Part shown: piece by piece, positions 2,894 to 56,888 of the stretch | How the letters are laid out: each line of letters begins with the position of its first letter | Numbering within the stretch: position 1 is the stretch's first letter | Source of the DNA: a virus | IMG/VR virus record: IMGVR_UViG_3300026097_001210 | Coordinates: 1 to 64,000 of that record | Direction: 5' to 3' (one strand) | Length of the DNA stretch: 64,000 bases | Translations under genes and position numbers: made by a program | Notes under the pieces: model-generated | The model's input: only the letters and a program-made list of their open reading frames with translations | Database searches by the model: none | What the model was told of the DNA's origin: nothing

Positions 2894-2902
2894 TGCTATA
2901 AT
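2894..2902 (+). promoter_or_regulatory. Extended -10 promoter for a leaderless transcript
   Basis: TGCTATAAT, 6 nt, ATG 2909; no SD. Confidence 0.65.
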
Positions 2903-2908
2903 AGTTTT

Positions 2909-3874: not shown

Positions 3875-3878
3875 AATT

Positions 3879-4334: not shown

Positions 4335-4385
4335 AGCCTATCTACACAAAAACTCCCACTATGTTAAAATATATTAGGAGAATAA

Positions 4386-20500: not shown

Positions 20501-23500
20501 ATACCGCGGCCACTCAAAAAGAAGAGGCGGCAACGAAAAGGTCTGTTGCCGCAAAGAAGGGGTGGGAAACTAGGCGAGCAAGAGCTGCCGCAACATCAGC
20601 CGCATCTGCCCCAAGAGATTTAAGTGGCGTTACTAGATTAACTTCTAGACAACCAGTTTTGGCTTATGCTGGCGGTATGCCAGAAACAAGCCCAGCACCA
20701 GCAGCACCAGGAAGATTTAAAAGATTTATGTCTGTTGGTAAGGGTAGCGGCGGTATGGGTATTGCCATGGGTGCATCTGCTTTGGCAATGGGCGGTTCTA
20801 TGCTTCCAGGTCAAATAGGTCAAACTGTTCAAAAGCTAATGCCAGCAATTATGGGAATTTCAATGCTTGCCCCAATGATCGGTATGCTTGGAGCGCCACT
20901 AACTGCTTTAATTGCTGTTGTTGGTGGGCTAACCGCTGCTTATTTCTTGCACAAGAAAGCTATTGAGGATACCGCCAAAGAAACGTATGAATTGCAAAGA
21001 GCGCTGGGTACCAGTAGAACAGCAGTTCAGTCTTTGGCAGAAGAGGCGGGGAGGGTAACAGACAGAGAGCTTGTTGAAAGGCAACAACAGGACAGATTTG
21101 ACCCATTCCAAATTGCAGCGGGTAAAACCACTTTCGGTGAAAACTTTGCAGAGGGAGAAGCTGGTCAAGAGCTAGTAAGTAACATTAGAACATCACTAAC
21201 TGATTTGGGAAGAGACCAAACAGTTATAAGTGTTTTCCAGCAACTTGGTCAGGCCGTAGGAGAGGGTGCTCTTTCTATCCCAGAAGCCAGAAGTATCGCC
21301 ACAGAGCTTGGAGATCAAATTGACGATATGTCATTTGGTATGGAGGTTAATGCAAACTTAATGAGGCTGCTTGGCCCAGGGGGAGAAGACCTAACCGCTG
21401 GGGACAGACTAACAATCCTTGCAGACCTTAGAGAGGATCGAGAAAGAACCAGAGAAGAGATGGATCTGGACTATGAAGCAACCTCTTATGGGGATATCTT
21501 CGATGCTGAATCCGAAGCCAATGAAAGGCTAGGAGAAATAATTGAACAAAGTGGTAGCATGCTTGGCGCAATGGCTACTTCTGGAGAAGCCTGGAAGATT
21601 TGGTGGGGTGCCATTACTGGCACTACCGCAGCTCAAGATAATATAAAGCAGATGTCTACTATTTTAGCTCAAGGTGTCAATGACGCCGATGCATACGCTT
21701 CAGAAATGGCTGCAATAGAAGTAGCTTATGGCGAGGACCTAGAAAAAGCCTATGCTATGGGAGATCAGTACGAAATATCAAGACTTGAAAGAGAAAAGAG
21801 CGATGCGCAAAGGGAGCTGGTTGCTCAAAGGAAACAAGATCAAGATCAAATTTTATCAGAGCTTGGCGAAGATACTTCAAAAGCCAGAATAGCCATGAAG
21901 CAAGCCCTAGAAGTTGATTTTGCTGGTGACGAAGCCGCCCTAGCTCAATATCAAGGGGCCTTAAAACAAATACAAGAGCTGGGCCTGTCTGATCAAAAAT
22001 CCTTACAGTTAGAATATATGCTTACTTCTGGTGACATGGAGTTTTCAACTGCAATGGCAATTGTAGAAAATTATGAAAAATTACCAAAAGTTTCCAACAA
22101 AATATTAGAAATTCAAACCAAGCTTGGCGGAGATTTTGGCAAAAACGCATCAGACTTATTCAATATATTCAATGATCTAGATGAAGCATTAGCAGAAGAA
22201 TTTGTTTTGAGTCTAGACACCAGAGATCTAGATGAGTATCAAAGACAAATTGAAGGATTTGGTGCAATTTCTAGGATTACTAACCTTTTTCCAGAAGGGG
22301 AAGAAATTCTTTTAGATTTGGCACTTAAAGACCCAAGTGTTTTAGATGGAATTGTAGAAAGAACTAGCAGAATAGAGGCTTTAGATAATGAACAGATTAC
22401 CCTAGACTTTATTGCTAATACATTTGGAGACGAAGCACTCGCTGCAGCAGAAACTATTTGGTCAGATATACCAAAGGAAGATAGAAAAGACGCTCTTTAC
22501 AGTATTTTAACAGCCTTAGACCTTCAGATGGGAGAAGGATTCGACGATCTTTTCTCATCACTAGAAGGGCAAACAATTGCTGGGGTGACAATTAGTGAAC
22601 CTGGAGACATTCTTTCCCTTATTGGAGCAAGAACCTCTGGCATAGCACAAGGAAACAGAGAAGCTGGCGATGGTGAAGATGAAATAGAGGCAGCAGGCGG
22701 CAGCGCCAAAAAGCTAACCTCTATTATGGATGACCTAGTTAAAAAACTAAGAGACGTTAGACTTAGCACAATCTTAATGACAAACGGATGGGTTGAATCT
22801 GCGAATAAGCTAGAAGAGCTTTTTGGAGGCGGCAGGGGTATTTCTGTATTCAGAGGTCTAGAACAGGAAATGCGTAGCCTTGGTGCAGGCGAAGACCTAA
22901 TTGACCTAATTGTTGGAATGGATCCTGAAGAGTTTGAAAAGAAAAAAGATCAGCTATTTACTTTTGATGCTGCTGGAAATATTACTGGAGCAACAAACAT
23001 TCTTGCCAACATGGGCAAAGCGCTAGATGCAATTGCTCTTGGAGACTTCCAAAGTGAACAGGAAAAGGTTGTTAGAACTATAAGTGATCAAATTATCGCA
23101 ACAAGAAAACTTACAGCTGCTGGATTTAGCCAAGTTGAAGCCTATGAGGCAGTCCAGGATGCAGCTTTTGCTGCGGCGGTAGCTCAAGAAAAAAACAAAG
23201 ATGTAATAAGACAGCTCGTAAATGTAACAAAAGAAGCAAAAGAAATGACTGAGGCTTTTGCCGCTGCTCAGGCGGTAGCTTCATCAAATCAAGAATTTGT
23301 TGACAGAGGTAATGCCATAGACTTTATTGCTAAAAATATTGAAAACCTTACTGAAGCACAAAAACAATTAATTATGAGCGATAGCAATGTTCAAGCATTA
23401 ATTGGAACTACCGTCGATGCAAAGGCGCTTAGGCAGGCATTGGCTAATGCTGAAAAAGAAGCACAGCTTGAGCTTAGAATTAAAAAGCTAACATTTGAGG

Positions 23501-26229
23501 GGCAGATAGATATCTTTGAAGAAGGATTTAGTAATGCTATGGAAGCATTTGCTGTTCAAGAAAAAGAAATCGAACTTGATTTTAAGATTAAAAAGCAGCC
23601 ACTTATTGACGCCATAGAGGCGGCAGAACGACAAATTCAAGACATTCGTGATAGACCAGGGGGACTAGATGATCTTGAAGCAGACCTTAGCAGAATTTCT
23701 GATAAAGAGGAAGAGCTTAACGAAAGATACGACGAAAGAATTAAAGCACTCGAAGAAGTTAAAAGCATTAATGAAGCCGTCGCTAAGCTACAACAAAATC
23801 AGTTAGATGTAGCAGAAGCTTTGTCCCGTGGTGACATTGCCGCAGCGGCCAAAGCTGCTCAACAAAGAAGACAGCAGTCAGCAAGCATAGCTGTAGAAAA
23901 TCAGTCAAAGCAAATAGAGCTACAAAGAGAAACAGAGCTTGCCAATCTTACTGCTAAGACTGGTCTAAACAGAAAACAGCTTGAAGAGTCAATAAAAACA
24001 CTTAAAGATGAAATTTTTGAAATAGAAGAAAGAACTATTGAGCCAGCACAGTATAGGCTAGAACTTCTTGAAAGAGAGCAGCAAGAGCTTATTGATGGGG
24101 TTACCGTTCTTGGAAAAACCAGGGACGAGTGGGAAAGAATTAAAAACAACATTGATCTTGCAAAGATTAGTAGTGATAGCTTCCAACAAACCATGCAAGA
24201 AGCACTAGACATTGTAGAAAGCATTGTTAATTATTGGAATGATTTTGACCCAGACCCCAAAGAAATACAAATTACAGAAAAGGTTGTAGAAGAAAGAGAA
24301 CCACTTGAGCCAGTAGCTACGGTGGTGCCAAAAGATACCCAAGACGGAACTGGTCCTGGAACAGAAAAAGAGGAAGAAGAAGAGAAAGAAGAGTATGAAT
24401 GGCCAGGGGAGGCAGTGGGTTGGCGACCACCAATGCTTCCTGGTTACGACCCAAACGCACCCAGTCTTCCAGGAATCAGGCCATGGGAATTCAGAAAATA
24501 CGGACCACAAAACCCAAGGCAGGCGGATGGATCTTTCCCAGAAGAAGAAGCAGGAAGAAGAAGAAGAAATAATTCCTTTGATGTTCTTGGTGGGGTTCCA
24601 GAAGGATACTATCAAAAACCAGGAACTGATCCTGGTCCTTTTGGAGACCCAGCGCTGGCCTTGACCGAATACGAAAAGAGACTACTTGGACAGGCAGGAT
24701 CTTCTAAAACAAATATTAATGGCTCTGACGCCAGTGCCGGTGGCACGGGCGGATATGACCCACTAACTGGAAGATACAATCCACAATCTTCTATAGCACT
24801 ACCAGGAGGGGGACCAGCAGGTGTACCCTCAGCACTTTCTGGTGGTCAAGATTTTAATGCTATAGTTTCACAAATTACTCAGGGTCTAAGTGCTAAACTT
24901 CAACAAGTTCAAAACGATACCGCTGAAACAACCAGGGTAATGCTTCAACACTTTGGACAATTTGGAATTACAGCCCCAATCTTAATGCAAACAATTCCAA
25001 ACTTTATTAACAAAATTCCAGAACAAAGCAGGGTAGCTATTTTGGAAAATGTTCAAGGACACTTTAATACACTATCTATAAACGCTAAAGAGACTCTTAA
25101 TCAAATACCCGACTTCTTCACAAGGTTACCGGAAATAAGTCAGCAAGCCCTTCTTGAGCAAATGAACTCTCAGTTTGGCCAGTTTAGCAATCAAGCGTTA
25201 ACCGATTTGGGTGGAATTAACGAGTGGATTTCGGCACTTCCAGCAGACGCCCAAGTTGCGGCATGGGATATCTTGTCCCAACAAATTTCTAAATTAGCTG
25301 TCGATGCTGAGGGCAATTTAAATGAAACTATCTTTAAGTTTTTCGACGTGTTACCCGAAAACGTACAGGGTCCAATTGTTGAAGAGCTTGGCGCTCAAAT
25401 TCAAACAATGGCTAAAAATGCGGGTATGAGTGTTGACCAGTACATCACTACAAAATTAAAGGATTTGCCAGAAGAAACAAAGCAAATGCTGGTAGATGGA
25501 ATTCAGGGAAATATAACAGAGGCCTCGGAGGGCAGCGCTGAAGCCATTACAACTTATATTCCTGGTGGTTTGAATGAGGTAAGCGAGTCGGGCAGTACAA
25601 CAGCTTCTGGAATTGAAGAAGACTTTGAGAATGCCTCTATTTCTGCTGTAGAAAATATTGAGACTATTAAAACACCCTTTGAGGCCCTGGCTGCATACAT
25701 TTCAGACGATGGAAACGAGGGCTTTACTGGAATCTTAAACAAAGCATTCGATGATGCCAAAAACAATGGTGTTTCTGCGGCAGGGGATATTAAGGATGCT
25801 TTTGGTTCTGCTGGTAGAAAATTTGCCTCAGAGTTTAAGGGTAAGTTTAGTGATTTACTGGACAAGCTTGAAGGAGTCAGGGTAGACGGAGAAAAAATTG
25901 ATATTGATAGAAATGGCTTCAACAAGGGAGGCCTTGTTCCTGGAATAGGAAGCACCGATATTATTCCAGCTTCTCTTACCCCAGGAGAGTTTGTTATAAC
26001 AAAATTTGCTACTAAAAACTTTGGAATAGAAAACCTTCAAGCAATTAATGATGGAAAATTTCCCGTTGCAGCTATTGACGTACCATCAAGCAAGGATATA
26101 AGCTATAATAATAGTTATCAAATCAATGTTAACGTCAAGTCTGATGCAAACCCAGAGGACATAGCAAGAACAGTGGTGCAAAACATTAAGAGAGTGGATA
26201 GTCAAAGGGTTAGGGGGAATAGGATTTAA
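17527..26229 (+). CDS. Tape measure protein (2900 aa)
   Basis: TP901-type core (AFLNAAENQT..., GANALKS), TM segments, long coiled coils, C-terminal DIIPASLTPGEFVI and NVNV..PEDIAR motifs. Confidence 0.92.
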   Translation: MAEAQANINLNLNTSGALAQLRALQRQISLFQQQMARGNANTVAQAQGMQRNLLNSINSTGQFAASMTTVSTATESFTSALQKNKLSMGEYFRFAGGASKNFGRFFRNEMNLVGKVARERVKDLQTQYIKMGRDTNGAMRAMAVRPLTLDMENLATRTAMAAQKQQIFNQLIRQGSTNLLNWGKNTQWAGRQLMVGFTIPLGIMGATAISEFRKLEEQAVKFRRVYGDMFTTSAETEKALDNIRELADEFTKYGIAVEKTIDLAAKVAQMGNMGDALEQQVTQATRLAVLGGLEQQEALDTTISLTNAFGVATEDLASKIAFLNAAENQTILAIEDFNEAIPKAGSVVQQLGGDVEDLAFFLTAMREGGINASQGANALKSSLGRLVNPTEVARKKMAELGIDIVGIVENNVGDLRGTIMELGYELDALAPLDRSRAIEQMFGKFQFARMSTMFQNIVKDGSQAQKVLELTTNSSEELAILAERELARVEESPAFKLQKSFEQLKASLAPLGEQFVKIVTPIIEFGTNILEKFNAMGEGGKRFATIAIASLGLVAPAALMIIGLIANGVANLAKFFTMLMSVGKQGSTSMTQLGAQTQYMTQEQIEASAVAASLNNSHERLRQTFTSEAAAVRNLTTAYQQGIGAQRAFAFGPGRGPARGRTASGFAEGVVSVPGPKGAGDIIPAMLSPGEAVIPAKMAEKYAPFISQMIEGTVPGFIKGTFLTNKQVADEKFYSAPRSVSQQASEMPAWSTEAAEDEFLERLAAEEGLSEQQTKQLKRRQTSHIEKDTSPVEIGGQKVEMKNWKADNLMLDKGAVNNFQNSLEQSGGVLKDLSDSDIGNIAKEAGTSFKDTKKTLEKFDKGIAPATKKEAKIMQKVAERKAAEADAAYKAEEAKKRPNQRNLSRLRNQRYQARAAAGVLQERLKAPTGKGFYDTKDQRSYDPKKDAKADQEQKRKVDSLNRKNEKLKEENSKAIKKNTRSKKNSTRATDKNTAATQKEEAATKRSVAAKKGWETRRARAAATSAASAPRDLSGVTRLTSRQPVLAYAGGMPETSPAPAAPGRFKRFMSVGKGSGGMGIAMGASALAMGGSMLPGQIGQTVQKLMPAIMGISMLAPMIGMLGAPLTALIAVVGGLTAAYFLHKKAIEDTAKETYELQRALGTSRTAVQSLAEEAGRVTDRELVERQQQDRFDPFQIAAGKTTFGENFAEGEAGQELVSNIRTSLTDLGRDQTVISVFQQLGQAVGEGALSIPEARSIATELGDQIDDMSFGMEVNANLMRLLGPGGEDLTAGDRLTILADLREDRERTREEMDLDYEATSYGDIFDAESEANERLGEIIEQSGSMLGAMATSGEAWKIWWGAITGTTAAQDNIKQMSTILAQGVNDADAYASEMAAIEVAYGEDLEKAYAMGDQYEISRLEREKSDAQRELVAQRKQDQDQILSELGEDTSKARIAMKQALEVDFAGDEAALAQYQGALKQIQELGLSDQKSLQLEYMLTSGDMEFSTAMAIVENYEKLPKVSNKILEIQTKLGGDFGKNASDLFNIFNDLDEALAEEFVLSLDTRDLDEYQRQIEGFGAISRITNLFPEGEEILLDLALKDPSVLDGIVERTSRIEALDNEQITLDFIANTFGDEALAAAETIWSDIPKEDRKDALYSILTALDLQMGEGFDDLFSSLEGQTIAGVTISEPGDILSLIGARTSGIAQGNREAGDGEDEIEAAGGSAKKLTSIMDDLVKKLRDVRLSTILMTNGWVESANKLEELFGGGRGISVFRGLEQEMRSLGAGEDLIDLIVGMDPEEFEKKKDQLFTFDAAGNITGATNILANMGKALDAIALGDFQSEQEKVVRTISDQIIATRKLTAAGFSQVEAYEAVQDAAFAAAVAQEKNKDVIRQLVNVTKEAKEMTEAFAAAQAVASSNQEFVDRGNAIDFIAKNIENLTEAQKQLIMSDSNVQALIGTTVDAKALRQALANAEKEAQLELRIKKLTFEGQIDIFEEGFSNAMEAFAVQEKEIELDFKIKKQPLIDAIEAAERQIQDIRDRPGGLDDLEADLSRISDKEEELNERYDERIKALEEVKSINEAVAKLQQNQLDVAEALSRGDIAAAAKAAQQRRQQSASIAVENQSKQIELQRETELANLTAKTGLNRKQLEESIKTLKDEIFEIEERTIEPAQYRLELLEREQQELIDGVTVLGKTRDEWERIKNNIDLAKISSDSFQQTMQEALDIVESIVNYWNDFDPDPKEIQITEKVVEEREPLEPVATVVPKDTQDGTGPGTEKEEEEEKEEYEWPGEAVGWRPPMLPGYDPNAPSLPGIRPWEFRKYGPQNPRQADGSFPEEEAGRRRRNNSFDVLGGVPEGYYQKPGTDPGPFGDPALALTEYEKRLLGQAGSSKTNINGSDASAGGTGGYDPLTGRYNPQSSIALPGGGPAGVPSALSGGQDFNAIVSQITQGLSAKLQQVQNDTAETTRVMLQHFGQFGITAPILMQTIPNFINKIPEQSRVAILENVQGHFNTLSINAKETLNQIPDFFTRLPEISQQALLEQMNSQFGQFSNQALTDLGGINEWISALPADAQVAAWDILSQQISKLAVDAEGNLNETIFKFFDVLPENVQGPIVEELGAQIQTMAKNAGMSVDQYITTKLKDLPEETKQMLVDGIQGNITEASEGSAEAITTYIPGGLNEVSESGSTTASGIEEDFENASISAVENIETIKTPFEALAAYISDDGNEGFTGILNKAFDDAKNNGVSAAGDIKDAFGSAGRKFASEFKGKFSDLLDKLEGVRVDGEKIDIDRNGFNKGGLVPGIGSTDIIPASLTPGEFVITKFATKNFGIENLQAINDGKFPVAAIDVPSSKDISYNNSYQINVNVKSDANPEDIARTVVQNIKRVDSQRVRGNRI

Positions 26230-26819
26230 TGACAAGTCAAAGTTATTTAGAAGGTCGTAAATCTTATGGTAGACCCCAAGCAATGCTTTTTTCCAATAAT
26301 CCTGGATCTATTGAAAATGGCTTTTATGTCCCAGATGGCACAGAGTTTGAAGATTTTCTTATTCTTTCAGATCATAATCGTGACCCAATTAATTTTACTC
26401 ATCAAAGAATTGAAAACAGGTTAAGAACCATTAACGGAAGGATGAGGTCTTATCATATTGCAGATAAGCTTTCTATATCTACTAGTTGGCAGAATTTACC
26501 ATCCCGCTCCGCTTCGTCAAGGCTAATTATTGACCAGGAAAGCGGTCAAACCTTTATTGGCGCAGATGATCTTTCCTACATTGTTGATAACGGTGCAGCT
26601 GGTGTAGACTTGCTAAATTGGTATGAAAATAACCAAGGATCTTTTTGGGTATTCTTAGCCTATGATAAGTTTAACAACTTTAATAATGATTACAATAAGT
26701 TTGGCCAATACAATGAAATACTAGAAGTTTTCTTTGTTGATTTTCAGCACGAGGTTGTTAAACGAGGACAGTCATCCCATGACTTTTGGAATATATCTTT
26801 GACGGTGGAAGAGGTATAA
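26229..26819 (+). CDS. Distal tail (Dit-like) protein
   Basis: Directly after the tape measure gene; RTINGRMRSY, WNISLTVEEV end. Confidence 0.65.
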   Translation: MTSQSYLEGRKSYGRPQAMLFSNNPGSIENGFYVPDGTEFEDFLILSDHNRDPINFTHQRIENRLRTINGRMRSYHIADKLSISTSWQNLPSRSASSRLIIDQESGQTFIGADDLSYIVDNGAAGVDLLNWYENNQGSFWVFLAYDKFNNFNNDYNKFGQYNEILEVFFVDFQHEVVKRGQSSHDFWNISLTVEEV

Positions 26820-29800
26820 TGTTTCAAAATGATGAATTACAAAATCATTTAGAGACTTCTTCTACAATTAGAATTGAGTCTTTTGTTACCGCTGAATGGA
26901 ACATGAACGTTGCTGAAAACATTGCTCGTATAGGTAACTACAGATACCGACCCACTGACCCTGAAACATCAAAATACTTTAGGGTAGCAGAATCATTTGA
27001 ATATAATGATGAAGGGTCTATGTTTTACACAGGCGCAACTGATGCAGACGTTATTGTAGACGGTGGGTTTGATGACAACAATGTGCCAATTGCTTTTATT
27101 TCTAAAAAAGAAAAAGAAAAAATGCTTTATTCTTTGGAAGATTGTTTTGGAAGATTTCGCCCTCGCTCTGGAATTAATAAGCTTCGTTATTTTTCAGACA
27201 AATATTCTCATCACGACAATAGGCTAATGTCTCAAAGACCAAGATACTATATGGCAGATAAAAAAGATCCTTTCAAGTATTGGTCTTCTTTTAGAACAGA
27301 AGATGGAATCGAGAGGGGGATTGCTGATACTGTAGTTAATGGTAGATATTATATTTCAGATGCCGCCCCATTTGTGGTTTATAAGAATAAAATTCCAGCC
27401 AATCGAATTGTTGTAAAAATGCAAACGAGTGTTGGGTCTGTAGATTTGGGTCCTTTTTCAGATTCTTCTGGAGCATTTAATGATCCATTTTTTGGAGAAG
27501 AAAACAAAACAACACCAGTTAGATGGAAGATTCAGTATTTAAAAGACTCTAACTGGGTAGATGCAATAAGGTTTGATGAAAACTCAACAAGAAGAGATGG
27601 CTCTCCAATAATTGGATCAGATGGATATTTAGAAATTGGCTATGGTCTTATTATTCCAGATGAATATTATAATATTTTTAATTTTGAAAAAGTTTTAGCA
27701 TCAGAGTCTTTGCTACCCCCTGCTTCTGAAATGGTTAATGGTGTCGCTTTTCTTATTATTAACAACAGCAGTTCTAAAGGGGTTGTTCACATAGCAATGA
27801 ATGGTCAGTATGAAACTTTTAATGCATCGTATGGATGGCAAATTATTGATGAAATAAACAGATCTGTTAGCTTTGTAGAAAATTTAACCAACCCAGAATA
27901 TTTTGTAGAAAATAACTCTAATGAAAAAATTTATAGAGAGCTTGCATATATTCAAGGCCTAAGAGTTGTTGCGGAAACAATGAATAAGATTGAATCATCG
28001 CTAGATTTAATAGAACTATCTCCAAGACTTTCAGCAAACATTTCAGATAAGATTAATCAATTTTCAATTACTAAGCCAGCCTCTGATCTTGGTGTTAGTG
28101 GAATGCCAGTAGGGCAGCTTCTCGTTTCAACGGGTACCCTCGATATATTTGATTACGATCAAGCATTTTTTGACACAAACACCAATAGCATTGTTAAAGA
28201 TTATACAAATCAAAGCATTCAGTTTAAATTTTATGAAACAGTTTTAGGTGTTAATGGCTCAGATTACTTTGTTCCAATTAAAACTATGTATGCAGATGGT
28301 TTTCCTTCTATTAATAATCAATCCAGAACTGCATCAATAACTTTGAGAGATTTGTTTTTCTATTTAGAATCTTCAGCAGCGCCGACTATTCTTTTAGAAA
28401 GTGCTTCGCTGAGCTATGCTGTTTCGTTATTGTTAGACTCTATTGGCTTTTCTAATTATGTATTTTTAAGAACAGAAAACGAAGCTGAAGATGTAATTCC
28501 ATATTTTTATATTGAACCAGACAAAAGTGTTGCTGAGATCTTAAACAGTATAGCGAGGTCAACCCAATCAGCAATGTTCTTTGATGAATACAATAACCTC
28601 ATTGTAATGAGTAAAAACTACATGATGCCAAGCACTACGGAAAGGGGCACAGATTTAACACTTTATGGAAGCAAAGATTTTGCTCAAAATGGTGCCATTA
28701 AAAATCAGGGTACCAGTAACAAGCTTTCCAACATAGTTAACATCACTTCTCAAGATAACAGAATATATAATGATGGGAAAATACTTTATTCAACTAGATA
28801 CATTCAAAGATCTTATGCCTCTATCAGGCAAGCATCGCTATTAGATAGAGATAAGACCTGGATTTACAAGCCAGCTTTATTGTGGGAGGTTTCAGCGACT
28901 GAAAACACAAAATCAGTAAATGAAGAGGTCAACGAGCAGTCCGCTTACGCCTTGGCTGCAATCCCCCTTAACTCTGATCTCAACACTAAATTGCCAAAGG
29001 TGGTAAATCACCAGCTTGTCAATAATATTATTGACCTTGGTGACGGAATTTATTGGCTAACTAGATACAACGGATATCTTTATGCTAATGGTGAAATTAT
29101 TAAATTTGATGCTGTTCAATATAATATTCCTGGACTTAGCGCAACAGAAAAAACAGAAACTGGCGATGACAATGTTTGGATAAGCAGTCGTAAAGAGTAT
29201 CAGAGATATTTTGAAAAGGTTCCCTTTAATGGAAAGATATATCCTACTGGTATTTTAAGAATTTATTCCGAACCAAATTATGAAACTGCTGGAGATACAG
29301 TAAGACTTAAAAACGGCGATGTAGCTAAGCACGGTAGGGGACAGTTCGGAACGGAAATTGTAGAACATTCTTCTGGAATATCTTCGCATTGGACAGATGA
29401 TAACAATGTTCGCGGCGCCCTGATGGAATCTAAATATCTATTTGGTGACACAAAAGTTTTTAAAACAGTAAGCAGCGTTGAGCTTATATCGAATGATCCC
29501 GTTGCGCTTTTTTCTGTCTCTGACCCGTCTGTATTGCGTCCTGGAGATTATATTGAGAGATATGACGAGGAAGAGTATGAGGGCGTAGAGATTTCTGCCA
29601 ATATTATTCAAGAAAACACACAGGTTACGGGGGTAGATGTAGAAAATAAACAGATAGTAGTAGACAAGCCAGTCCTAATTGAGTCTGAAGAGCAAACCCC
29701 AATTGTTGCTTTAAGAGTTTTCACTCAAATACCTGCAACGGTTACTGGAGCTGCTGGAATTGATAACGCCAGGGCACAACAAACAAACAGAACTGACTTA

Positions 29801-31417
29801 ATTAGAAACTTTTTAGCCAAAAAGAGTGTTAGCGAATTGCCAGGTGCACAAGAGTATCCTGCAACAACCCAGTCTTCTGCCTTAGTAATGGAAGGTGCTT
29901 TTCCCACAGACAATATTTCTCCTACTGATTTTGTTTCTTATGTCTATAAACCTTTAGAAAATAGATTTAGACACTTTGGAACAAGGCTAAGAATCGTTGG
30001 ACAAATTAATGACAATGACATCCGCGGACAGTCTCCAGAGGGTGCCTCTACTTATTTTACAGTGACAGATGCTCGTGGCTCTCGTGATGTTTCTATTTCT
30101 GGATCTTCTGCTGGAATAGCGATTATGGTAAACCCAGAAACAAATAACGGATACTTTTTTGAGCTGGCAGGTCTTAGCGTTGCTAAGAATCTTTCAAATT
30201 ACCAGTCAGACGAGAACGTTGCAGATATGATTTTCTACAAGGTTTTAAAACGAGACGGTGCTGAAAACGATAACGAGAAAGCAATTCCCGTCCCTCTTTG
30301 GAGGGGCATAGGAAATATCCTTGTTGACTCTGGTGATTTTGTTGGTCAGCAAAGGTTGGCGGTAGAGGCAGAAACAACAGTGTACGATATAGCCATAGAG
30401 TACGAAGAGCTAGGAAATACCAGAAGGTTTTATCTATACGTAAACAATGTTCTTGTTGGAATAGCAGATGACGAAGAGCCGCTACCGATTTATAGCAATA
30501 TGGCTCTTTTTATTCGAGGATCTTCTAAAGCTATGTTTGAACACGTTTATGCATTAACTAAAAATTATAGTCAAAACGCTACTTTTTCTTTAGAAACACC
30601 AGCAAGCGATGTTTTTGAAATTGAAGATCTTAATGCCAATCAGTCTTTTAGAAAGTATGCAGTTAGTGGATTTGTGCAGTCTACATTTTTAAGCGGTATT
30701 GGACCAGATCAACCACCGAAATATAACATATATTACGATGAATTTGGAACAATAATGAGAGAAGCTGCCTACTTTAATGTTAGATATGATAAGGCATACC
30801 CAGCTCTTTCGGCAGAAATTTCTCCAACCTTTAACAGAATTAAGGGATACAGTGTTTCTGGATTTAGGGCAAGCTCGTATGGCGCAGAGTTTCTAATATT
30901 TAACAATACAGACTCTGCATTAAATCTCGATTCGACAAGTGGCAACTATTTAAGAATACAAGGAGTAACCTTTACTCAGCAATCTAAAAACGAACTAACG
31001 GTTGATGAGTATTTTGAAAAGATAGGAAATCTTTCGGATCCAGAAATTTTAGACAACAACGTTATCGTTTCTCCAGAAGTTGCTGAAGAAAGATATCGAG
31101 ACATCAAGCTAAGCAGAATTACGCATGGAAGAACAGAGTTCTCCATTGATGCCCCCTATATTCAAAGCCAGGATTCTGCCAATGGATTAATGAAGTGGAT
31201 GACTGAAAAGGTTATGAAAAAGAGAAAGTCTGTAGGTCTTCAAATTTTTGCAATGCCCACGCTACAACTGGGAGACATCGTCACCATTAACTATGTCAAT
31301 GAGCTGGGTACCCCAGAAATATCTTCTTCAGATTCTAGATTTGTAGTATATTATATTGAATATAACAGGGGGCCACAGGGGCCTACGATGAATGTTTATT
31401 TAAGTGAGGTGATTTAA
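26819..31417 (+). CDS. Large tail tip/baseplate hub protein
   Basis: IARSTQSAMFFDEYNNL and C-terminal PYIQ...PTLQLGDIVTI hub motifs; TAATG coupling at 26819. Confidence 0.7.
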   Translation: MFQNDELQNHLETSSTIRIESFVTAEWNMNVAENIARIGNYRYRPTDPETSKYFRVAESFEYNDEGSMFYTGATDADVIVDGGFDDNNVPIAFISKKEKEKMLYSLEDCFGRFRPRSGINKLRYFSDKYSHHDNRLMSQRPRYYMADKKDPFKYWSSFRTEDGIERGIADTVVNGRYYISDAAPFVVYKNKIPANRIVVKMQTSVGSVDLGPFSDSSGAFNDPFFGEENKTTPVRWKIQYLKDSNWVDAIRFDENSTRRDGSPIIGSDGYLEIGYGLIIPDEYYNIFNFEKVLASESLLPPASEMVNGVAFLIINNSSSKGVVHIAMNGQYETFNASYGWQIIDEINRSVSFVENLTNPEYFVENNSNEKIYRELAYIQGLRVVAETMNKIESSLDLIELSPRLSANISDKINQFSITKPASDLGVSGMPVGQLLVSTGTLDIFDYDQAFFDTNTNSIVKDYTNQSIQFKFYETVLGVNGSDYFVPIKTMYADGFPSINNQSRTASITLRDLFFYLESSAAPTILLESASLSYAVSLLLDSIGFSNYVFLRTENEAEDVIPYFYIEPDKSVAEILNSIARSTQSAMFFDEYNNLIVMSKNYMMPSTTERGTDLTLYGSKDFAQNGAIKNQGTSNKLSNIVNITSQDNRIYNDGKILYSTRYIQRSYASIRQASLLDRDKTWIYKPALLWEVSATENTKSVNEEVNEQSAYALAAIPLNSDLNTKLPKVVNHQLVNNIIDLGDGIYWLTRYNGYLYANGEIIKFDAVQYNIPGLSATEKTETGDDNVWISSRKEYQRYFEKVPFNGKIYPTGILRIYSEPNYETAGDTVRLKNGDVAKHGRGQFGTEIVEHSSGISSHWTDDNNVRGALMESKYLFGDTKVFKTVSSVELISNDPVALFSVSDPSVLRPGDYIERYDEEEYEGVEISANIIQENTQVTGVDVENKQIVVDKPVLIESEEQTPIVALRVFTQIPATVTGAAGIDNARAQQTNRTDLIRNFLAKKSVSELPGAQEYPATTQSSALVMEGAFPTDNISPTDFVSYVYKPLENRFRHFGTRLRIVGQINDNDIRGQSPEGASTYFTVTDARGSRDVSISGSSAGIAIMVNPETNNGYFFELAGLSVAKNLSNYQSDENVADMIFYKVLKRDGAENDNEKAIPVPLWRGIGNILVDSGDFVGQQRLAVEAETTVYDIAIEYEELGNTRRFYLYVNNVLVGIADDEEPLPIYSNMALFIRGSSKAMFEHVYALTKNYSQNATFSLETPASDVFEIEDLNANQSFRKYAVSGFVQSTFLSGIGPDQPPKYNIYYDEFGTIMREAAYFNVRYDKAYPALSAEISPTFNRIKGYSVSGFRASSYGAEFLIFNNTDSALNLDSTSGNYLRIQGVTFTQQSKNELTVDEYFEKIGNLSDPEILDNNVIVSPEVAEERYRDIKLSRITHGRTEFSIDAPYIQSQDSANGLMKWMTEKVMKKRKSVGLQIFAMPTLQLGDIVTINYVNELGTPEISSSDSRFVVYYIEYNRGPQGPTMNVYLSEVI

Positions 31418-54003: not shown

Positions 54004-54750
54004 ATGAAAAGAATTTTTGACTGGAAATCAAATCATGATAACAGGTCTAGGCAATATAGCATCAGGCAGGTTATTGGAAACAACATTAAACCAACAAAAA
54101 TATTGTGGGAAGAGGGCACAGTTCTTGACCAGGGCTCGGAAGGGGCCTGTGTTGGATTTGCTTGGACGGCAGAGCTTTTAGCAGAGCCATCGGCTCCAGA
54201 GAGTCAGCCTAGCGAAGAATTTGCAAATGCATTAGCTAGTGAATTTTATCAGGAAGCCAAGCACGTTGATGAATGGCCAGGGACAAACTATGAAGGCACT
54301 TCAGTTTTGGCGGGTGCAAAAATTATGCATCGTAAAGGTTTTATCAAACAATATCGTTGGTGCTTTAGTGTAGACGAGGTAAGAGATGCCCTTATCGCAG
54401 AAGGCCCTGTAGTAATTGGAATACCCTGGCTAAGCGGTATGTATGAAACAGCACCTGGTGGTATTGTAAGGGTATTTGGAAAGCCAGTAGGTGGCCACGC
54501 TCTAGTTTTAACGGGGTACAACCCAGCAATGAACATTGGTCAATCCACAGAAGAGTGTTTCCGTTGGAGAAATTCCTGGGGGAATGATTATGGAAATAAC
54601 GGATCAGGATGGATTAGACGTAAAGATTTAGAAAAATTACTTGCCTCTAATGGAGAAGCTTGTGTTCCAATGCAAAGACAAACCCCTATTTTTAAGAAAG
54701 CAAAGGTATCTAAAATAAAACGATGGTTTAGTTTTATTTGTAAAAAATAA
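54004..54750 (+). CDS. Papain-like (C1A) cysteine peptidase
   Basis: DQGSEGACVG (Q, C), GGHA (H), RNSWG..YG..G (N). Confidence 0.85.
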   Translation: MKRIFDWKSNHDNRSRQYSIRQVIGNNIKPTKILWEEGTVLDQGSEGACVGFAWTAELLAEPSAPESQPSEEFANALASEFYQEAKHVDEWPGTNYEGTSVLAGAKIMHRKGFIKQYRWCFSVDEVRDALIAEGPVVIGIPWLSGMYETAPGGIVRVFGKPVGGHALVLTGYNPAMNIGQSTEECFRWRNSWGNDYGNNGSGWIRRKDLEKLLASNGEACVPMQRQTPIFKKAKVSKIKRWFSFICKK

Positions 54751-54758
54751 TTAAATAT

Positions 54759-54831
54759 TGGGGTGTGGCGAAATTGGCAGATCGTTCGATTGTTAATCGA
54801 TAGGTTGTAGAATCGTACCCTACCACCCCAG
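54759..54831 (+). tRNA. tRNA-Asn(GTT), atypical T arm
   Basis: Acceptor TGGGGTG/CACCCCA, G73, anticodon arm TCGA-TTGTTAA-TCGA; T loop ATCGTAC. Confidence 0.65.
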
Positions 54832-55434: not shown

Positions 55435-55506
55435 GCCCCCTTAGCTCAAAGGCAGAGCGCCACTCTTGTAAAGTGGAGGTTGAGATCTCGGAATTCTCAG
55501 GGGGCT
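55435..55506 (+). tRNA. tRNA-Thr(TGT)
   Basis: GCCCCCT/AGGGGGC, CCACT-CTTGTAA-AGTGG. Confidence 0.85.
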
Positions 55507-55620: not shown

Positions 55621-56049
55621 ATGTCAGCAGTGATTATTTATAATAATGGTGGTATGGAAATACTGGGTGCTGTCAGTGTTAAGAAGTCTATTACTATGCT
55701 ATACCGTGGCGTTGCACGGGTACGCACTGAATCGGAGGATGGGCGGTTTGGTCCATACCCTATCCCTAAGTCTTTAGAATTAAACAAATATATTTTTCCT
55801 AAGTGGAAGTATAGTAGAAAAACTATTCATTATTCTCGTAAGGGTGTTTTGGAGCGGGATGGATATATTTGTGCATATTGTCATGAGTATGCTAATACTA
55901 TTGATCATGTTATTCCTAAGTGTGATGGTGGGGAATCTACTTGGTTAAATACCGTCGCTTGTTGCAAAAAATGTAATACCGTAAAAGCTGGCAGAACACC
56001 AGAAAAGGCGAGTATGATTCTTAGGAATAAGCCTGCTATGCCAGCTTGA
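55621..56049 (+). CDS. HNH endonuclease (McrA-like)
   Basis: VLERDGYICAYC..TIDHVIP..GG.STW.N.V.CC..CN..K; true start 55621, not 55480. Confidence 0.88.
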   Translation: MSAVIIYNNGGMEILGAVSVKKSITMLYRGVARVRTESEDGRFGPYPIPKSLELNKYIFPKWKYSRKTIHYSRKGVLERDGYICAYCHEYANTIDHVIPKCDGGESTWLNTVACCKKCNTVKAGRTPEKASMILRNKPAMPA

Positions 56050-56074
56050 CAATGATATCGATGACCTGTATTAT
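56046..56074 (+). promoter_or_regulatory. Sigma-A/70-type promoter TTGACA-N17-TATTAT
   Basis: TTGACA 56046-51, 17-nt spacer, TATTAT 56069-74; drives the tRNA-like RNA and thyX. Confidence 0.75.
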
Positions 56075-56084
56075 TTAATGGTGA

Positions 56085-56160
56085 GCCCTGGTATCCCCTC
56101 ACGCTTATAACGTGTTGAAAGGGTAGTCGGTTCACGCGAGTTCAATCCTCGCCCAGGGTA
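56085..56160 (+). tRNA. Non-canonical tRNA-Ile(TAT)-like RNA with D-loop placed 3' of the anticodon arm
   Basis: Acceptor GCCCTGG/CCAGGGT, A73; T arm GCGAG-TTCAATC-CTCGC; anticodon arm CACG-CTTATAA-CGTG; no 5' D arm; AGTCGGT at 56125-31. Confidence 0.7.
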
Positions 56161-56177
56161 CAAAAAGAAGGAGAGCA

Positions 56178-56888
56178 ATGGAAAAAGTAAGTGTATTAGA
56201 TAAAGGTTATGTTCGACTTGTTGATCACATGGGTAGTGATTTGTCTGTAGTCAATGCAGCGAGGGTATCATATGATAAAGAATCAGAAGAAATAACAGAT
56301 CGTGATCGTAAACTACTTAATTTTTTAATTAGGGAAAAGCATACTTCTCCATTTCGTCATGCAGCTATGACTTTTGAAGTTTATGCCCCGCTTGTTGTGG
56401 CACGTCAGTGGTGGAAATATTCTGTATCTTCTACTCATGTTGATGATCAGAATGGGTGGAACGAATCTTCTAGAAGGTATATTACAGAGGATGAAGAGTT
56501 TTATGTCCCTACCGCCACGCAGTGGCGTAGCAAGCCTGAGAACAGCAAACAGGGCTCTGGAGAGCCAGTAGATGAGCTAGTGGGGCAAAGGTTTACCGAT
56601 AGACTAGAGGAGATGATTAGGTTGGGAGAAGAAGCCTATGAGTCCGCTATGGAGCAGGGCATCGCTCCAGAGCTTGCTAGACTATTTCTGCCAGCTTATG
56701 GCATGTATGTTCGCTGGCGTTGGACTACCTCTTTGCAGGGGGTAATGACATTTCTTGAACAACGTCTGCCTCATGATGCTCAATCAGAAATTAGAGAATA
56801 TGCTGATGCTGTTCTTAAACTATCTAAAAATATTTTCCCAGAAACCTTTAAGTCATACCTCGATCTTGACACACAAATCTGGGTATAA
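56178..56888 (+). CDS. thyX: Flavin-dependent thymidylate synthase
   Basis: VVNAARVSY, HTSPF, ARQW, NESSRRY, ELARLFLP, R...AQSEIR. Confidence 0.92.
   Translation: MEKVSVLDKGYVRLVDHMGSDLSVVNAARVSYDKESEEITDRDRKLLNFLIREKHTSPFRHAAMTFEVYAPLVVARQWWKYSVSSTHVDDQNGWNESSRRYITEDEEFYVPTATQWRSKPENSKQGSGEPVDELVGQRFTDRLEEMIRLGEEAYESAMEQGIAPELARLFLPAYGMYVRWRWTTSLQGVMTFLEQRLPHDAQSEIREYADAVLKLSKNIFPETFKSYLDLDTQIWV

What the first reader, a model, noticed from the sequence alone, without database searches (positions are those of the whole stretch)
56085..56160. Topologically rearranged tRNA-Ile(UAU): D-loop on the 3' side of the anticodon arm
Seen: a 76-nt element with a 7-bp acceptor stem (GCCCTGG/CCAGGGT, A73), a canonical T arm and a 7-nt anticodon loop CT-TAT-AA on stem CACG/CGTG. 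There is no D hairpin after T8-A9. Instead the 5' TATCCCCT strand can pair with AGGGTA downstream of the anticodon arm, and a D-loop-like AGTCGGT (with the GG that normally docks on the T loop) sits where the variable loop belongs. A consensus TTGACA-N17-TATTAT promoter ends 10 nt upstream. Established: bacteria normally read AUA with lysidine-modified CAU (TilS), and UAU anticodons are rare. Inference: an alternative fold reaching the L-shape, giving TilS-independent AUA decoding for an ATA-rich phage, or acting as a nuclease-resistant tRNA or decoy. Standard tRNA finders would probably miss it. I cannot confirm from here whether the class is already described.
Basis: partly seen in the sequence, partly recalled or inferred. 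Interest (0 to 1): 0.85.

Follow-up and report, generated by a model that had tools for sequence, protein, structure and literature searches.

The report
Rewired phage isoleucine tRNA (UAU)
This 76-base phage gene is very probably a working isoleucine tRNA for the AUA codon whose core segments lie in a different order from the textbook cloverleaf; at least a hundred phage contigs share this layout, and gene finders and database annotations miss it.

Summary
Window 56085-56160(+) has a 7-bp acceptor stem, A73, a canonical T arm and a CU-UAU-AA anticodon loop, but no D hairpin. ARAGORN misses it, and the Rfam tRNA model scores it 28.0 bits against a cut-off of 29.

It belongs to a conserved phage family: 76 distinct sequences and 100 distinct contexts were collected here. 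Members occur in Streptomyces and Rhodococcus phages and in a crAss-like phage, and none is annotated as a tRNA.

Covariation supports every helix, including the cross-arm stem C11-G39, C12-G38 and C13-G37. It also supports a Levitt-like pair, G42-C51. The core reads as an internal circular permutation: the 10-20 segment (D-stem strand plus AGUYGGU D-loop) now follows the anticodon arm. All nucleotides known to build the L-shape are invariant.

Anticodons are only UAU or GAU, and A73 is kept in 75 of 76 sequences. Rewired-UAU genes never sit with a canonical tRNA-Ile(UAU) but do sit with canonical GAU, and the reverse holds for rewired-GAU genes. In thyX relatives the same slot holds a CAU tRNA that looks like tRNA-Ile2.

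Most likely this is a charged, AUA-decoding tRNA-Ile (about 0.7). Expression, charging and 3D fold are untested. I found no published description. Earlier notes of this scan report the same class on other genomes.

The parts
56046..56074 (+). Sigma-70-like promoter: TTGACA, 17-nt spacer, TATTAT. It overlaps the stop codon of the upstream HNH gene and ends 10 nt before the tRNA gene.
   Evidence: (11 of 12 matches). This is a consensus match only. It is conserved in L002. It is absent in relatives L009-L011, where the gene directly follows tRNA-Arg.
56085..56091 (+). Acceptor stem, 5' strand (nt 1-7).
   Evidence: All 7 pairs covary, with 98-99% of cells paired.
56092..56093 (+). U8 and A9, both invariant. 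I read U8 as the canonical U8 and A9 as the analogue of A21.
   Evidence: Invariant in 76 sequences. The mapping to canonical positions is inference.
56094..56097 (+). U10 C11 C12 C13: the strand equivalent to canonical D-stem positions 22-25. It runs straight on into the anticodon stem.
   Evidence: Pair 11-39 is CG 63 / AU 12 / UA 1. Pair 12-38 is CG 69 / UA 5 / UG 1. Pair 13-37 is invariant CG.
56098..56099 (+). C14 U15: analogues of position 26 and of the first anticodon-stem position (27). U15 faces U31.
   Evidence: C14 is invariant and U15 is at least 90% conserved.
56100..56114 (+). Anticodon hairpin: stem C16-G19 / C27-G30 and loop CUUAUAA. The anticodon UAU is at 56106-56108.
   Evidence: 100% of cells are paired, all four pairs covary, and there are 12 stem types. 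Loop positions C32, U33, A35, U36 and A37 are invariant.
56115..56120 (+). U31 N32 G33 A34 A35 A36: linker between the anticodon stem and the relocated D-stem strand. GAAA is invariant.
   Evidence: N32 varies without a covarying partner. Its role, possibly base triples in the D-stem groove, is inference.
56121..56124 (+). G37 G38 G39 U40: the strand equivalent to canonical D-stem positions 10-13, relocated 3' of the anticodon arm.
56125..56131 (+). A41 G42 U43 C44 G45 G46 U47: D-loop equivalent, mapping to A14, R15, N16, N17, G18, G19 and U20.
   Evidence: A41, G46 and U47 are invariant and G45 is at least 90% conserved. R42 covaries with position 51.
56132..56135 (+). U48 C49 A50 C51: connector to the T stem. 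C51 is the Levitt-like partner of G42, i.e. the analogue of Y48.
   Evidence: Columns 42-53 of A2 read GC 45 / AU 21 / GU 1 / other 9. This is the top non-helical structural pair in the mutual-information ranking.
56136..56152 (+). T arm: stem GCGAG/CUCGC and loop UUCAAUC.
   Evidence: Four of five pairs covary. The G53-C61 equivalent is invariant. U54, C56 and A58 equivalents are invariant and the U55 equivalent is at least 90% conserved.
56153..56160 (+). Acceptor stem, 3' strand, plus discriminator A (56160). CCA is not encoded; the next bases are CAA.
   Evidence: A73 is kept in 75 of 76 sequences.
56167..56888 (+). Downstream neighbour, not part of the RNA: ribosome-binding site GAAGGAG and thyX (ATG at 56178). 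No terminator lies between, so it is probably co-transcribed.
   Evidence: Pfam Thy1, 1e-40. No terminator-like site between the two genes.

Best explanation
The element is a functional elongator tRNA-Ile with anticodon UAU, reading AUA. Its core is an internal circular permutation of the cloverleaf.

Canonical order: 8, 9, [10-13, 14-20], 21, [22-25], 26, anticodon arm, 44-48, T arm.

Order in this gene: U8, A9 (acting as 21), [UCCC = 22-25], C (26), anticodon arm, a GAAA linker, [GGGU = 10-13], [AGUCGGU = 14-20], a short N-C-A connector, Y (48), T arm.

The two D-stem strands therefore flank the anticodon arm. Together with it they form one continuous helix of the canonical length: 4 bp, plus U-U, plus C14-G33 or a mismatch, plus 4 layers, giving 10 layers. 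The relocated D-loop can still reach the T loop (G18/G19 with U55/C56), pair R15 with Y48, and pair A14 with U8.

Shown here:
- the secondary structure;
- the invariance of the tertiary-contact residues;
- the restriction to Ile anticodons and A73;
- the gene's position in tRNA arrays;
- its complementarity with other Ile isoacceptors.

Inferred:
- the L-shape;
- RNase P 5' processing and 3' trimming;
- CCA addition by the host enzyme;
- charging by host IleRS;
- AUA decoding without lysidine.

In this phage the gene is probably transcribed with thyX, from the promoter at 56046-56074.
For: **Structure.**
- RNAalifold predicts de novo exactly the acceptor, cross stem, anticodon stem and T stem layout.
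- 98.2% of pair cells are standard pairs, against 70.1% in shuffles (0 of 500 shuffles reach the observed value) and at most 48% with slid partners.
- An unbiased, APC-corrected mutual-information ranking recovers only these helical pairs plus the 42-53 Levitt-like pair. The few other pairs trace to loop column 26 (position 38) and gap column 49, which track clades.
- A related contig in an independent run shows C11>A together with G39>U, and G19>U together with C27>A.

**All parts present in a new order.**
- U8, A9, A41, G46, U47 and the T-loop U54, C56, A58 and G53-C61 equivalents are invariant; G45 and the U55 equivalent are at least 90% conserved.
- Moving one 13-nt block (A36 to U47) to just after U8 makes ARAGORN of 75 members as tRNA: 68 Ile-tat, 3 Ile-gat and 4 in a shifted register. 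It of 75 unmodified members.

**Ile identity and decoding.**
- Anticodons are UAU in 73 and GAU in 3 of 76 distinct sequences, and A73 is kept in 75 of 76, while acceptor stems vary freely.
- In 100 distinct contexts, rewired-UAU genes never co-occur with a canonical tRNA-Ile(UAU) (0 of 95) but do co-occur with canonical Ile(GAU) in 11.
- Rewired-GAU genes (5) co-occur with canonical Ile(UAU) in 2 and with canonical GAU in 0.
- Immediately upstream of thyX, close relatives carry either the rewired gene (window, L002, L006, L009-L011) or a CAU tRNA that resembles tRNA-Ile2 (L005, L008, L013, L015, L017, L018).

**Context.**
- 43 of 130 genes lie within 100 nt of a same-strand canonical tRNA.
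- This phage's other tRNAs (Arg UCU, Gly UCC, Thr UGU) also serve A-ending codons, which it uses heavily. AUA is 20% of Ile codons.
- The 77-kb record holds no other Ile or CAU tRNA.

**Purifying selection.** A 96%-identical DNA contig has 0 changes in the 76 nt but 24 in the 525 flanking nt.
Against: - There is no direct evidence of transcription, processing, CCA addition or charging. No RNA run holds the locus.
- The L-shape is argued from conserved residues and remembered tRNA geometry, not from a model.
- The anticodon stem has only 4 Watson-Crick pairs plus a conserved U-U, and an invariant GAAA bulge has no canonical counterpart.
- For this one sequence, the thermodynamic optimum and ARAGORN on the rearranged version both prefer a shifted anticodon-stem register that presents AUA. 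Only family covariation fixes the UAU register.
- 27 of 95 rewired-UAU contexts also hold a CAU tRNA. If those are tRNA-Ile2, AUA decoding would be redundant.
- E. coli IleRS uses D-arm and anticodon-stem identity elements (from memory, Nureki 1994) that are altered here.
- The shifted-block control in the rearrangement test also gave 54 of 75 ARAGORN calls. That test shows that strand order is what blocks recognition; it does not fix the exact boundaries.
- The co-occurrence counts come from partial contigs of related phages, so they are not independent events.
Confidence: 0.72

Rival explanations
1. The RNA is a tRNA mimic that is processed like a tRNA but does not decode. It could be a decoy or sponge for a host tRNA-directed defence nuclease, for a toxin acting on tRNA-Ile or Ile-tRNA, or for a host enzyme such as TilS or IleRS. 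The rewired core would make it resistant or non-productive.
For: - The unusual core is strictly conserved, including an invariant GAAA bulge with no canonical role.
- Some phages carry it next to a CAU tRNA or other Ile tRNAs, so its decoding capacity may not be limiting.
- Phage tRNAs that counter tRNA-targeting defences are known (from memory).
Against: - A decoy for an anticodon nuclease would not need the free-to-vary but always paired acceptor stem with a fixed A73.
- It would also not need the canonical 7/5 acceptor/T geometry that EF-Tu requires.
- A decoy does not predict the reciprocal complementarity with canonical isoacceptors: rewired UAU with canonical GAU, rewired GAU with canonical UAU, and never the same anticodon twice.
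- It does not predict the syntenic alternation with a CAU tRNA.
- No conserved protein partner lies nearby. The most common neighbour family is ThyX, in 16 of 103 contexts.
Confidence: 0.18
2. The element is a cis-acting 5' leader of the thyX mRNA: a tRNA-like structure used for processing, stability or regulation of thymidylate synthase expression.
For: - In the window it lies 17 nt upstream of the thyX start codon.
- It lies behind a promoter-like site, with no terminator in between.
- ThyX is the most frequent neighbour in unbiased contexts, 16 of 103.
Against: - In most contexts there is no thyX nearby.
- In several thyX relatives the gene lies downstream of thyX (L020, L025, L029, L038, L044) or inside tRNA arrays.
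- The conserved anticodon loop, A73 and isoacceptor complementarity have no role in a leader.
Confidence: 0.03
3. The element is a decaying tRNA pseudogene, or a chance product of rearrangement near the HNH homing endonuclease gene.
For: - An HNH endonuclease gene sits immediately upstream.
- One relative, L042/L043, looks degenerate.
Against: - There are 76 distinct sequences, with compensatory changes in every helix and invariant tertiary residues.
- The same architecture occurs in phages of Actinomycetota and in Crassvirales.
- Relatives without the HNH gene carry the same rewired gene.
Confidence: 0.01
4. The transcript is a precursor whose segments are cut and rejoined after transcription to give an ordinary cloverleaf tRNA.
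For: - Permuted and split tRNA genes that are repaired at the RNA level exist in a red alga and in archaea (from memory).
- Transposing one block in silico gives a cloverleaf.
Against: - Repair would need an excision plus an insertion inside the molecule, for which no bacterial or phage machinery is known.
- No bulge-helix-bulge motifs are present.
- The cross-arm stem and the Levitt-like pair covary in the unrearranged order. That is expected only if this order is the folded, selected form.
Confidence: 0.02

Closest known systems
Canonical bacterial and phage tRNA-Ile(UAU). Examples: annotated gene 107 of Streptomyces phage LilMartin, and the canonical gene in L060/L064.
   Same: - 7-bp acceptor stem, 5-bp T stem, UUCRANY T loop and A73.
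- CU-UAU-A anticodon loop.
- D-loop motif A-R-Y-Y-G-G-U.
- Overall length of 75-78 nt.
- The L060 canonical gene even shares the anticodon arm (CACU-CUUAUAA-GGUG core) and the T arm (GUGGGUUCAAUCCCCAC) with many rewired members.
   Different: - The segment equivalent to positions 10-20 lies after the anticodon arm instead of before it.
- There is no D hairpin, so the molecule has a three-way rather than a four-way junction.
- The anticodon stem has 4 bp plus a U-U.
- There is an invariant GAAA linker.
- It scores below the RF00005 threshold and is not called by ARAGORN.
D-armless mitochondrial tRNAs, for example mammalian mt-tRNA-Ser(AGY) and nematode mt-tRNAs (review PMC7609411).
   Same: No hairpin lies between the acceptor stem and the anticodon stem, and these are working tRNAs that are not cloverleaves.
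   Different: - The mitochondrial forms are shortened and flexible, and they lack the G18-G19/T-loop lock.
- Here nothing is lost: the D-stem, D-loop, Levitt pair and T-loop residues are all kept but re-ordered.
- The setting is bacterial translation, not mitochondrial.
Circularly permuted and split tRNA genes (Cyanidioschyzon merolae, some archaea; PMC3728597 and memory).
   Same: A permutation of tRNA segments relative to the cloverleaf order. A duplication-then-deletion origin is plausible for both.
   Different: - In those genes the 3' half precedes the 5' half, and processing restores a normal cloverleaf.
- Here the gene ends are normal, and the permutation is internal (positions 10-47).
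- The covariation pattern indicates that the permutation persists in the folded RNA.
allo-tRNAs and other 8/4 or 9/3 tRNAs of bacteria and phages (PMC5389517).
   Same: Non-canonical tRNAs found in metagenomes and phages. UAU is a frequent anticodon among allo-tRNAs.
   Different: - allo-tRNAs have 8/4 or 9/3 acceptor/T branches, a long variable arm and a normal D arm.
- This family has the standard 7/5 branch, no variable hairpin and no D hairpin.
AUA decoders: tRNA-Ile2 (CAU modified to lysidine by TilS), and Mycoplasma mobile tRNA-Ile(UAU) (PMC3575796).
   Same: The proposed task is the same: reading AUA as isoleucine. The rewired gene occupies the slot that a CAU tRNA holds in related phages.
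   Different: - Those are ordinary cloverleaves.
- Whether U34 here is modified, and how AUG misreading is avoided, is unknown.
tRNA-like module of bacterial and phage Y RNA-like RNAs (YrlA, RF02553).
   Same: A tRNA-like fold built from re-ordered T, acceptor and D elements.
   Different: - RF02553 gives no match at this site.
- YrlA has no anticodon loop and its ends are not in an acceptor stem.
- This RNA has both an anticodon loop and acceptor-stem ends.

Membership tests
Canonical tRNA (Rfam RF00005, cloverleaf) | 7-bp acceptor stem with an unpaired discriminator | tested here: met
   All 7 pairs covary and 98% of cells are paired.
Canonical tRNA (Rfam RF00005, cloverleaf) | 5-bp T stem and 7-nt T loop with U54, U55, C56, A58 and G53-C61 | tested here: met
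   U54, C56, A58 and G53-C61 equivalents are invariant and U55 is at least 90% conserved in 76 sequences. Four T-stem pairs covary.
Canonical tRNA (Rfam RF00005, cloverleaf) | Anticodon arm: 5-bp stem and 7-nt loop with U33 and a purine at 37 | tested here: inconclusive
   The loop is canonical. The stem has 4 covarying Watson-Crick pairs plus a conserved U15/U31 in the fifth position.
Canonical tRNA (Rfam RF00005, cloverleaf) | D hairpin between position 9 and the anticodon stem | tested here: not met
   The Infernal alignment skips the D arm (15 model positions against 4 nt) and places 17 nt in the variable region. No such hairpin appears in the consensus fold.
Canonical tRNA (Rfam RF00005, cloverleaf) | Score at or above the curated gathering threshold (29 bits) | tested here: not met
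   28.0 bits. No hit at all with standard filters. ARAGORN of 130 genes.
Canonical tRNA (Rfam RF00005, cloverleaf) | L-shaped tertiary fold, with the D-loop/T-loop lock, U8-A14 and R15-Y48 | not testable with these tools
   All the residues are present and invariant, and the R42-Y51 pair covaries (GC 45 / AU 21). No 3D modelling or probing was available.
tRNA-Ile (isoleucine identity) | Anticodon GAU, UAU or modified CAU | tested here: met
   UAU in 73 and GAU in 3 of 76 distinct sequences, with no other anticodon. The core pattern used did not constrain the anticodon.
tRNA-Ile (isoleucine identity) | Discriminator A73, and A37 as the t6A site after U36 | tested here: met
   A73 in 75 of 76 sequences. 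U36 and A37 are invariant. Position 38 is A, C or U.
tRNA-Ile (isoleucine identity) | Aminoacylation by IleRS and decoding of AUA | not testable with these tools
   Only indirect support: isoacceptor complementarity and synteny with a CAU tRNA.
D-armless mitochondrial tRNA | D arm replaced by a short connector, with loss of the G18-G19/T-loop interaction and a reduced size | tested here: not met
   G45 (at least 90% conserved) and invariant G46 are kept inside an AGUYGGU motif, the D-stem equivalent covaries, and the length is 75-78 nt.
Circularly permuted tRNA gene | The 3' half is encoded upstream of the 5' half, and the gene termini lie inside the mature sequence | tested here: not met
   The gene begins and ends with the two acceptor strands in normal order.
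allo-tRNA (8/4, 9/3) | 8/4 or 9/3 acceptor/T branch and a long variable arm | tested here: not met
   7 + 5 pairs and no variable hairpin. The definition is taken from PMC5389517.
Y RNA-like (YrlA, RF02553) | Match to the family model | tested here: not met
   No hit at 56085-56160 at E up to 10.

The most novel reading that the evidence does not exclude
Bacterial translation uses, in infected cells, a second and non-cloverleaf solution to the tRNA L-shape: an internally circularly permuted tRNA-Ile. It would be processed, charged by host IleRS and accepted by EF-Tu and the ribosome. It would give phages of several bacterial phyla lysidine-independent AUA decoding. The rewired core might also make it invisible to host enzymes or defence nucleases that recognise the D-arm side of tRNA-Ile.
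Probability: 0.6. Interest if true: 0.92.

Novelty: new variant of a known kind. Interest (0 to 1): 0.86.

Why it matters
The cloverleaf is treated as universal for tRNAs outside mitochondria. If it is charged and decodes, this family would show that the same three-dimensional solution can be reached with a different strand order, and natural selection keeps it in many phages.

- **Structural test case.** It offers a natural test of which tRNA features RNase P, the CCA-adding enzyme, IleRS, EF-Tu, modification enzymes and the ribosome really need.
- **Annotation gap.** It exposes a blind spot in tRNA annotation. None of the rewired genes seen here is annotated as a tRNA, including in RefSeq and SEA-PHAGES genomes. 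Phage codon-supply analyses therefore undercount AUA decoders.
- **Engineering.** It suggests a ready-made scaffold for orthogonal tRNAs.
- **Phage-host conflict.** It may bear on conflicts between phages and hosts over tRNA-Ile and the AUA codon.

Tried and rejected
- **Similarity searches against phage records.** Megablast of the 3-kb region found nothing. Distant blastn of 1.7 kb found only thyX and ordinary tRNA similarity.
- **Exact T-arm/acceptor pattern.** It found only the near-identical contig.
- **RNA evidence.** No RNA holder is listed for the locus. The laid runs are contigs, two of them labelled RNA but probably DNA. They cannot show ends, CCA or expression.
- **Cellular genomes.** Two pattern scans of 185,579 species genomes gave one 30-kb MAG contig with a 23-tRNA array, probably a phage contig, and one chance match inside an ORF.
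- **Dedicated protein partner.** No ORF family is present in more than 16 of 103 contexts, and the top family is ThyX.
- **thyX-leader reading.** Rejected, because the gene's position relative to thyX varies.
- **Y RNA and other Rfam families.** No match.
- **Other anticodons.** A scan with a core pattern that does not constrain the anticodon gave only UAU and GAU.
- **Rearrangement test control.** Moving a block shifted by 6 columns still gave 54 of 75 ARAGORN calls. The test shows sufficiency of strand order, not precise boundaries.
- **Literature.** Eight full-text searches and three papers read found no description of this layout. The library lacks most subscription journals, so absence is not proof.
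- **tRNAscan-SE.** Not available. Its likely behaviour is inferred only from the Infernal score and from the lack of annotation in records that were curated with it.
Full report
**What is at the site.** Window 56085-56160(+) reads GCCCUGG-UA-UCCCCU-CACG-CUUAUAA-CGUG-UUGAAA-GGGU-AGUCGGU-UCAC-GCGAG-UUCAAUC-CUCGC-CCAGGGU-A.
- The acceptor stem (7 bp, G1-U72 wobble), discriminator A, T arm and 7-nt anticodon loop (C32, U33, UAU, A37, A38) are all tRNA-like.
- No hairpin follows U8-A9.
- The classic D-loop sequence AGUCGGU lies after the anticodon hairpin.
- ARAGORN finds three tRNAs upstream but not this element.
- Rfam at gathering thresholds finds five upstream tRNAs but not this element. A permissive 3-kb scan at E up to 10 also misses it.
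- When the filters are bypassed, RF00005 aligns it end to end at 28.0 bits, one bit under its cut-off. The D arm is skipped and 17 nt are treated as an insertion in the variable region.
- The promoter-like site TTGACA-N17-TATTAT (56046-56074) ends 10 nt upstream. It is an 11/12 match, but promoter-like sites are no more frequent here than in shuffles.

**Genomic setting.** The window is part of a 77-kb IMG/VR virus record, estimated 68% complete.
- It is a tailed phage with a portal, prohead protease, DnaB-like helicase, Pol III alpha, RecA, a GMP reductase-like enzyme, ribonucleotide reductase, ThyX and endonuclease VII.
- The element closes a tRNA array: Asn GUU, Gly UCC, Asp GUC, Thr UGU and Arg UCU.
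- An HNH endonuclease gene (about 55621-56049) separates it from tRNA-Arg.
- It lies 17 nt before the thyX start codon, with no terminator in between.
- The genome is 40% G+C. AUA makes up 20% of Ile codons and AGA 47% of Arg codons.
- The record holds no other Ile or CAU tRNA.

**It is a family, not an accident.**
- Loci fetched through ThyX relatives showed homologues at the same place or nearby.
- A 25-nt core pattern found 68 IMG/VR loci.
- In all I collected 130 genes in 100 distinct contexts and 76 distinct sequences.
- A covariance model built from 53 of them separates members (74-103 bits) from ordinary tRNAs (31 bits or less). It scores the window's copy 93.4 bits, E 7e-27, and finds only this one copy in the record.
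- Named genomes carry members in unannotated gaps:
  - Rhodococcus phage Peregrin;
  - Streptomyces phages LilMartin, MulchMansion and Angela;
  - Streptomyces phage Coruscant, where the match lies under an FtsK-like CDS annotation;
  - the crAss-like phage cr130_1 (Crassvirales) and bajarodcaudo virus 1, both confirmed with the model at 74 and 84 bits.
- Only one contig among 185,579 species genomes holds a member. It is a 30-kb MAG contig with a 23-tRNA array and is probably phage.

**Secondary structure.**
- RNAalifold on the 76-sequence alignment predicts, without guidance, the acceptor stem (1-7/69-75), a 3-bp stem 11-13/37-39 that encloses the anticodon hairpin 16-19/27-30, and the T stem.
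- Counting pairs on that structure gives 98.2% standard pairs, against 70.1% in shuffles (0 of 500 reach the observed value) and at most 48% when partners are slid by one to three columns. 18 of 20 pairs show changes on both sides (the same picture holds on the first alignment).
- Cross-arm stem: 11-39 is C-G 63, A-U 12, U-A 1. 12-38 is C-G 69, U-A 5, U-G 1. 13-37 is invariant C-G.
- The anticodon stem is 100% paired, with 12 different stem sequences.
- An APC-corrected mutual-information ranking of all column pairs returns these helical pairs and one more, column 42 with column 53 (G-C 45, A-U 21, G-U 1, other 9). The few remaining pairs trace to loop column 26 (position 38) and gap column 49, which track clades.
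- A related contig in an independent metagenome shows C11>A with G39>U, and G19>U with C27>A, on the same contig. A 96%-identical contig has no change in the 76 nt against 24 changes in the 525 flanking nt.

**How the parts map onto a normal tRNA.** This mapping is inference from established tRNA geometry, recalled from memory.
- Reading the 3' strand upward from the anticodon stem gives G37-G38-G39-U40, then A41-R42-N-N-G45-G46-U47. This is the sequence of canonical positions 10-13 followed by the D loop (A14, R15, N16, N17, G18, G19, U20), with the canonical three-nucleotide spacing between A14 and G18.
- The 5' strand U10-C11-C12-C13, followed by C14 and the anticodon stem, corresponds to 22-25, 26 and 27 onward. 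A9 in front of it corresponds to A21.
- The covarying 42-53 pair is then the Levitt pair R15-Y48.
- Invariant in all 76 sequences: U8, A9, A41, G46, U47, the GAAA linker, and the T-loop U54, C56, A58 and G53-C61 equivalents. G45 and the U55 equivalent are at least 90% conserved.
- The helix from the anticodon loop to the top of the D-stem equivalent has ten layers, as in a cloverleaf tRNA.
- The layout is therefore an internal circular permutation of positions 10-47: [10-20][21-47] has become [21-47][10-20].
- The three new chain joins (8 to 21, 44 to 10, 20 to 48) connect residues that are neighbours in the canonical fold. This is what a viable circular permutation requires.
- A tandem duplication of the core followed by two deletions would produce it.
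- As a crude test, moving one 13-nt block (A36-U47) to just after U8 makes ARAGORN of 75 members as tRNA (68 Ile-tat, 3 Ile-gat, 4 in a shifted register), against 0 of 75 unmodified. A control block shifted by six columns still gave 54 calls. The test shows that strand order is what hides the gene, not the exact boundaries.

**Function.** The evidence for a decoding tRNA-Ile is indirect but points in one direction.
- Anticodons are UAU (73) or GAU (3) and nothing else. A73 is kept in 75 of 76 sequences while the acceptor stem changes freely.
- The GAU members have fully different but paired anticodon stems, for example LilMartin with CUCC/GGAG.
- Across 100 distinct contexts, rewired-UAU genes never share a locus with a canonical tRNA-Ile(UAU) (0 of 95), but share one with canonical tRNA-Ile(GAU) in 11.
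- Rewired-GAU genes (5) share a locus with canonical UAU in 2 and with canonical GAU in none.
- Directly upstream of thyX, close relatives have either the rewired gene (window, L002, L006, L009-L011) or a CAU tRNA. That CAU tRNA's sequence resembles E. coli tRNA-Ile2 as I recall it (L005, L008, L013, L015, L017, L018).
- A third of the genes lie within 100 nt of another tRNA gene on the same strand.
- No protein family accompanies the gene consistently, so it presumably relies on host enzymes.
- CCA is not encoded in the window's copy, whereas the neighbouring tRNA-Arg encodes it.

**What remains open.**
- Nothing here shows transcription, maturation, charging or the three-dimensional fold. 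No RNA run holds the locus.
- For this single sequence, the minimum-energy fold and ARAGORN on the rearranged version prefer a shifted anticodon-stem register. The UAU register rests on family covariation.
- CAU tRNAs sit beside the rewired gene in 27 of 95 UAU contexts (examples L020 and L057). This could mean redundancy, or that those are methionine tRNAs.
- Why this architecture is confined, in my sample, to isoleucine is unexplained. So is what the invariant GAAA does.
- A non-decoding mimic or decoy therefore keeps about 0.18 probability.

**Novelty.**
- Reviews of non-canonical tRNAs and the allo-tRNA paper describe D-armless mitochondrial tRNAs, 8/4 and 9/3 tRNAs, tRNA-Sec and tRNA-Pyl, but nothing with this strand order.
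- Eight full-text searches, including searches for the core sequence itself, found no description.
- Earlier notes of this scan report the same class on other genomes, with the same reading. I reached the segment mapping before reading them (note) and re-tested the claims here. I did not find the arginine members or the 8/4 variant that two of those notes mention.
- I class it as a new variant of a known kind: a tRNA with an undescribed topology.

Noticed in passing
window 54759-54831 and 55435-55506 (+): Two further tRNAs of the array pass the Rfam tRNA threshold (36.2 and 50.5 bits) but are not called by ARAGORN. One is Asn GUU, with a shortened anticodon-stem/D region and an odd T loop. The other is Thr UGU, with T loop CUCGGAA. 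The phage's array contains several mildly aberrant tRNAs.
   Followed up: partly
window about 55621-56049 (+): An HNH endonuclease gene (Pfam HNH_5 / HNH) is inserted between tRNA-Arg and the rewired tRNA-Ile. Relatives L009-L011 lack it and have only about 19 nt between the two tRNA genes. The promoter-like site for the rewired gene overlaps the HNH stop codon, so the insertion may have brought its own downstream promoter.
   Followed up: partly
L042:3697-3772 and L043:3697-3772 (+): A divergent family member (74.5 bits) just downstream of thyX. Its loop is CUUACUG, the GG of the D-loop motif is lost, C replaces U54 in the T loop, and the discriminator is G. It is either a decaying copy or a re-purposed variant.
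   Followed up: no
L105:1125-1183 (+): A 59-nt tRNA-like element with an acceptor-like stem and a canonical T arm, but a tetraloop hairpin where the anticodon arm would be. It scores 30.8 bits with the family model.
   Followed up: no
L149 (DAOTVW010000131.1, Anaerolineales MAG, 30-kb contig), 2214-6660: The only member found in the species-genome collection heads an array of 23 canonical tRNAs. The array includes Ile GAU but no canonical Ile UAU. The contig looks like a phage or tRNA island binned into a MAG.
   Followed up: partly
A2 columns 55/69 (T-stem pair 50-64), e.g. L161, L162, L185, L186: Nine members share a U-U mismatch in the second T-stem pair: eight with the CAAG, CUGG, GAGU or CUAU anticodon stems plus bajarodcaudo-like sequences. 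This appears to be a conserved clade-specific feature.
   Followed up: no
L151 (Streptomyces phage LilMartin) 1957-2478; NC_070782 / MT711976 (Coruscant) 73031-73094: In LilMartin the rewired GAU gene sits just after a gene annotated as nucleotidyltransferase, possibly a CCA-adding enzyme. In Coruscant the homologous stretch is covered by an FtsK-like CDS annotation, which may therefore start too far upstream.
   Followed up: no
window 17527-26229 and 26786-31417 (+): Two very large ORFs (2900 and 1543 aa) lie in the structural region of the phage. They were not examined.
   Followed up: no
window 54004-54750 (+): An ORF just upstream of the tRNA array has a weak papain-family cysteine protease match (Pfam Peptidase_C1, E 1.6e-5).
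   Followed up: no
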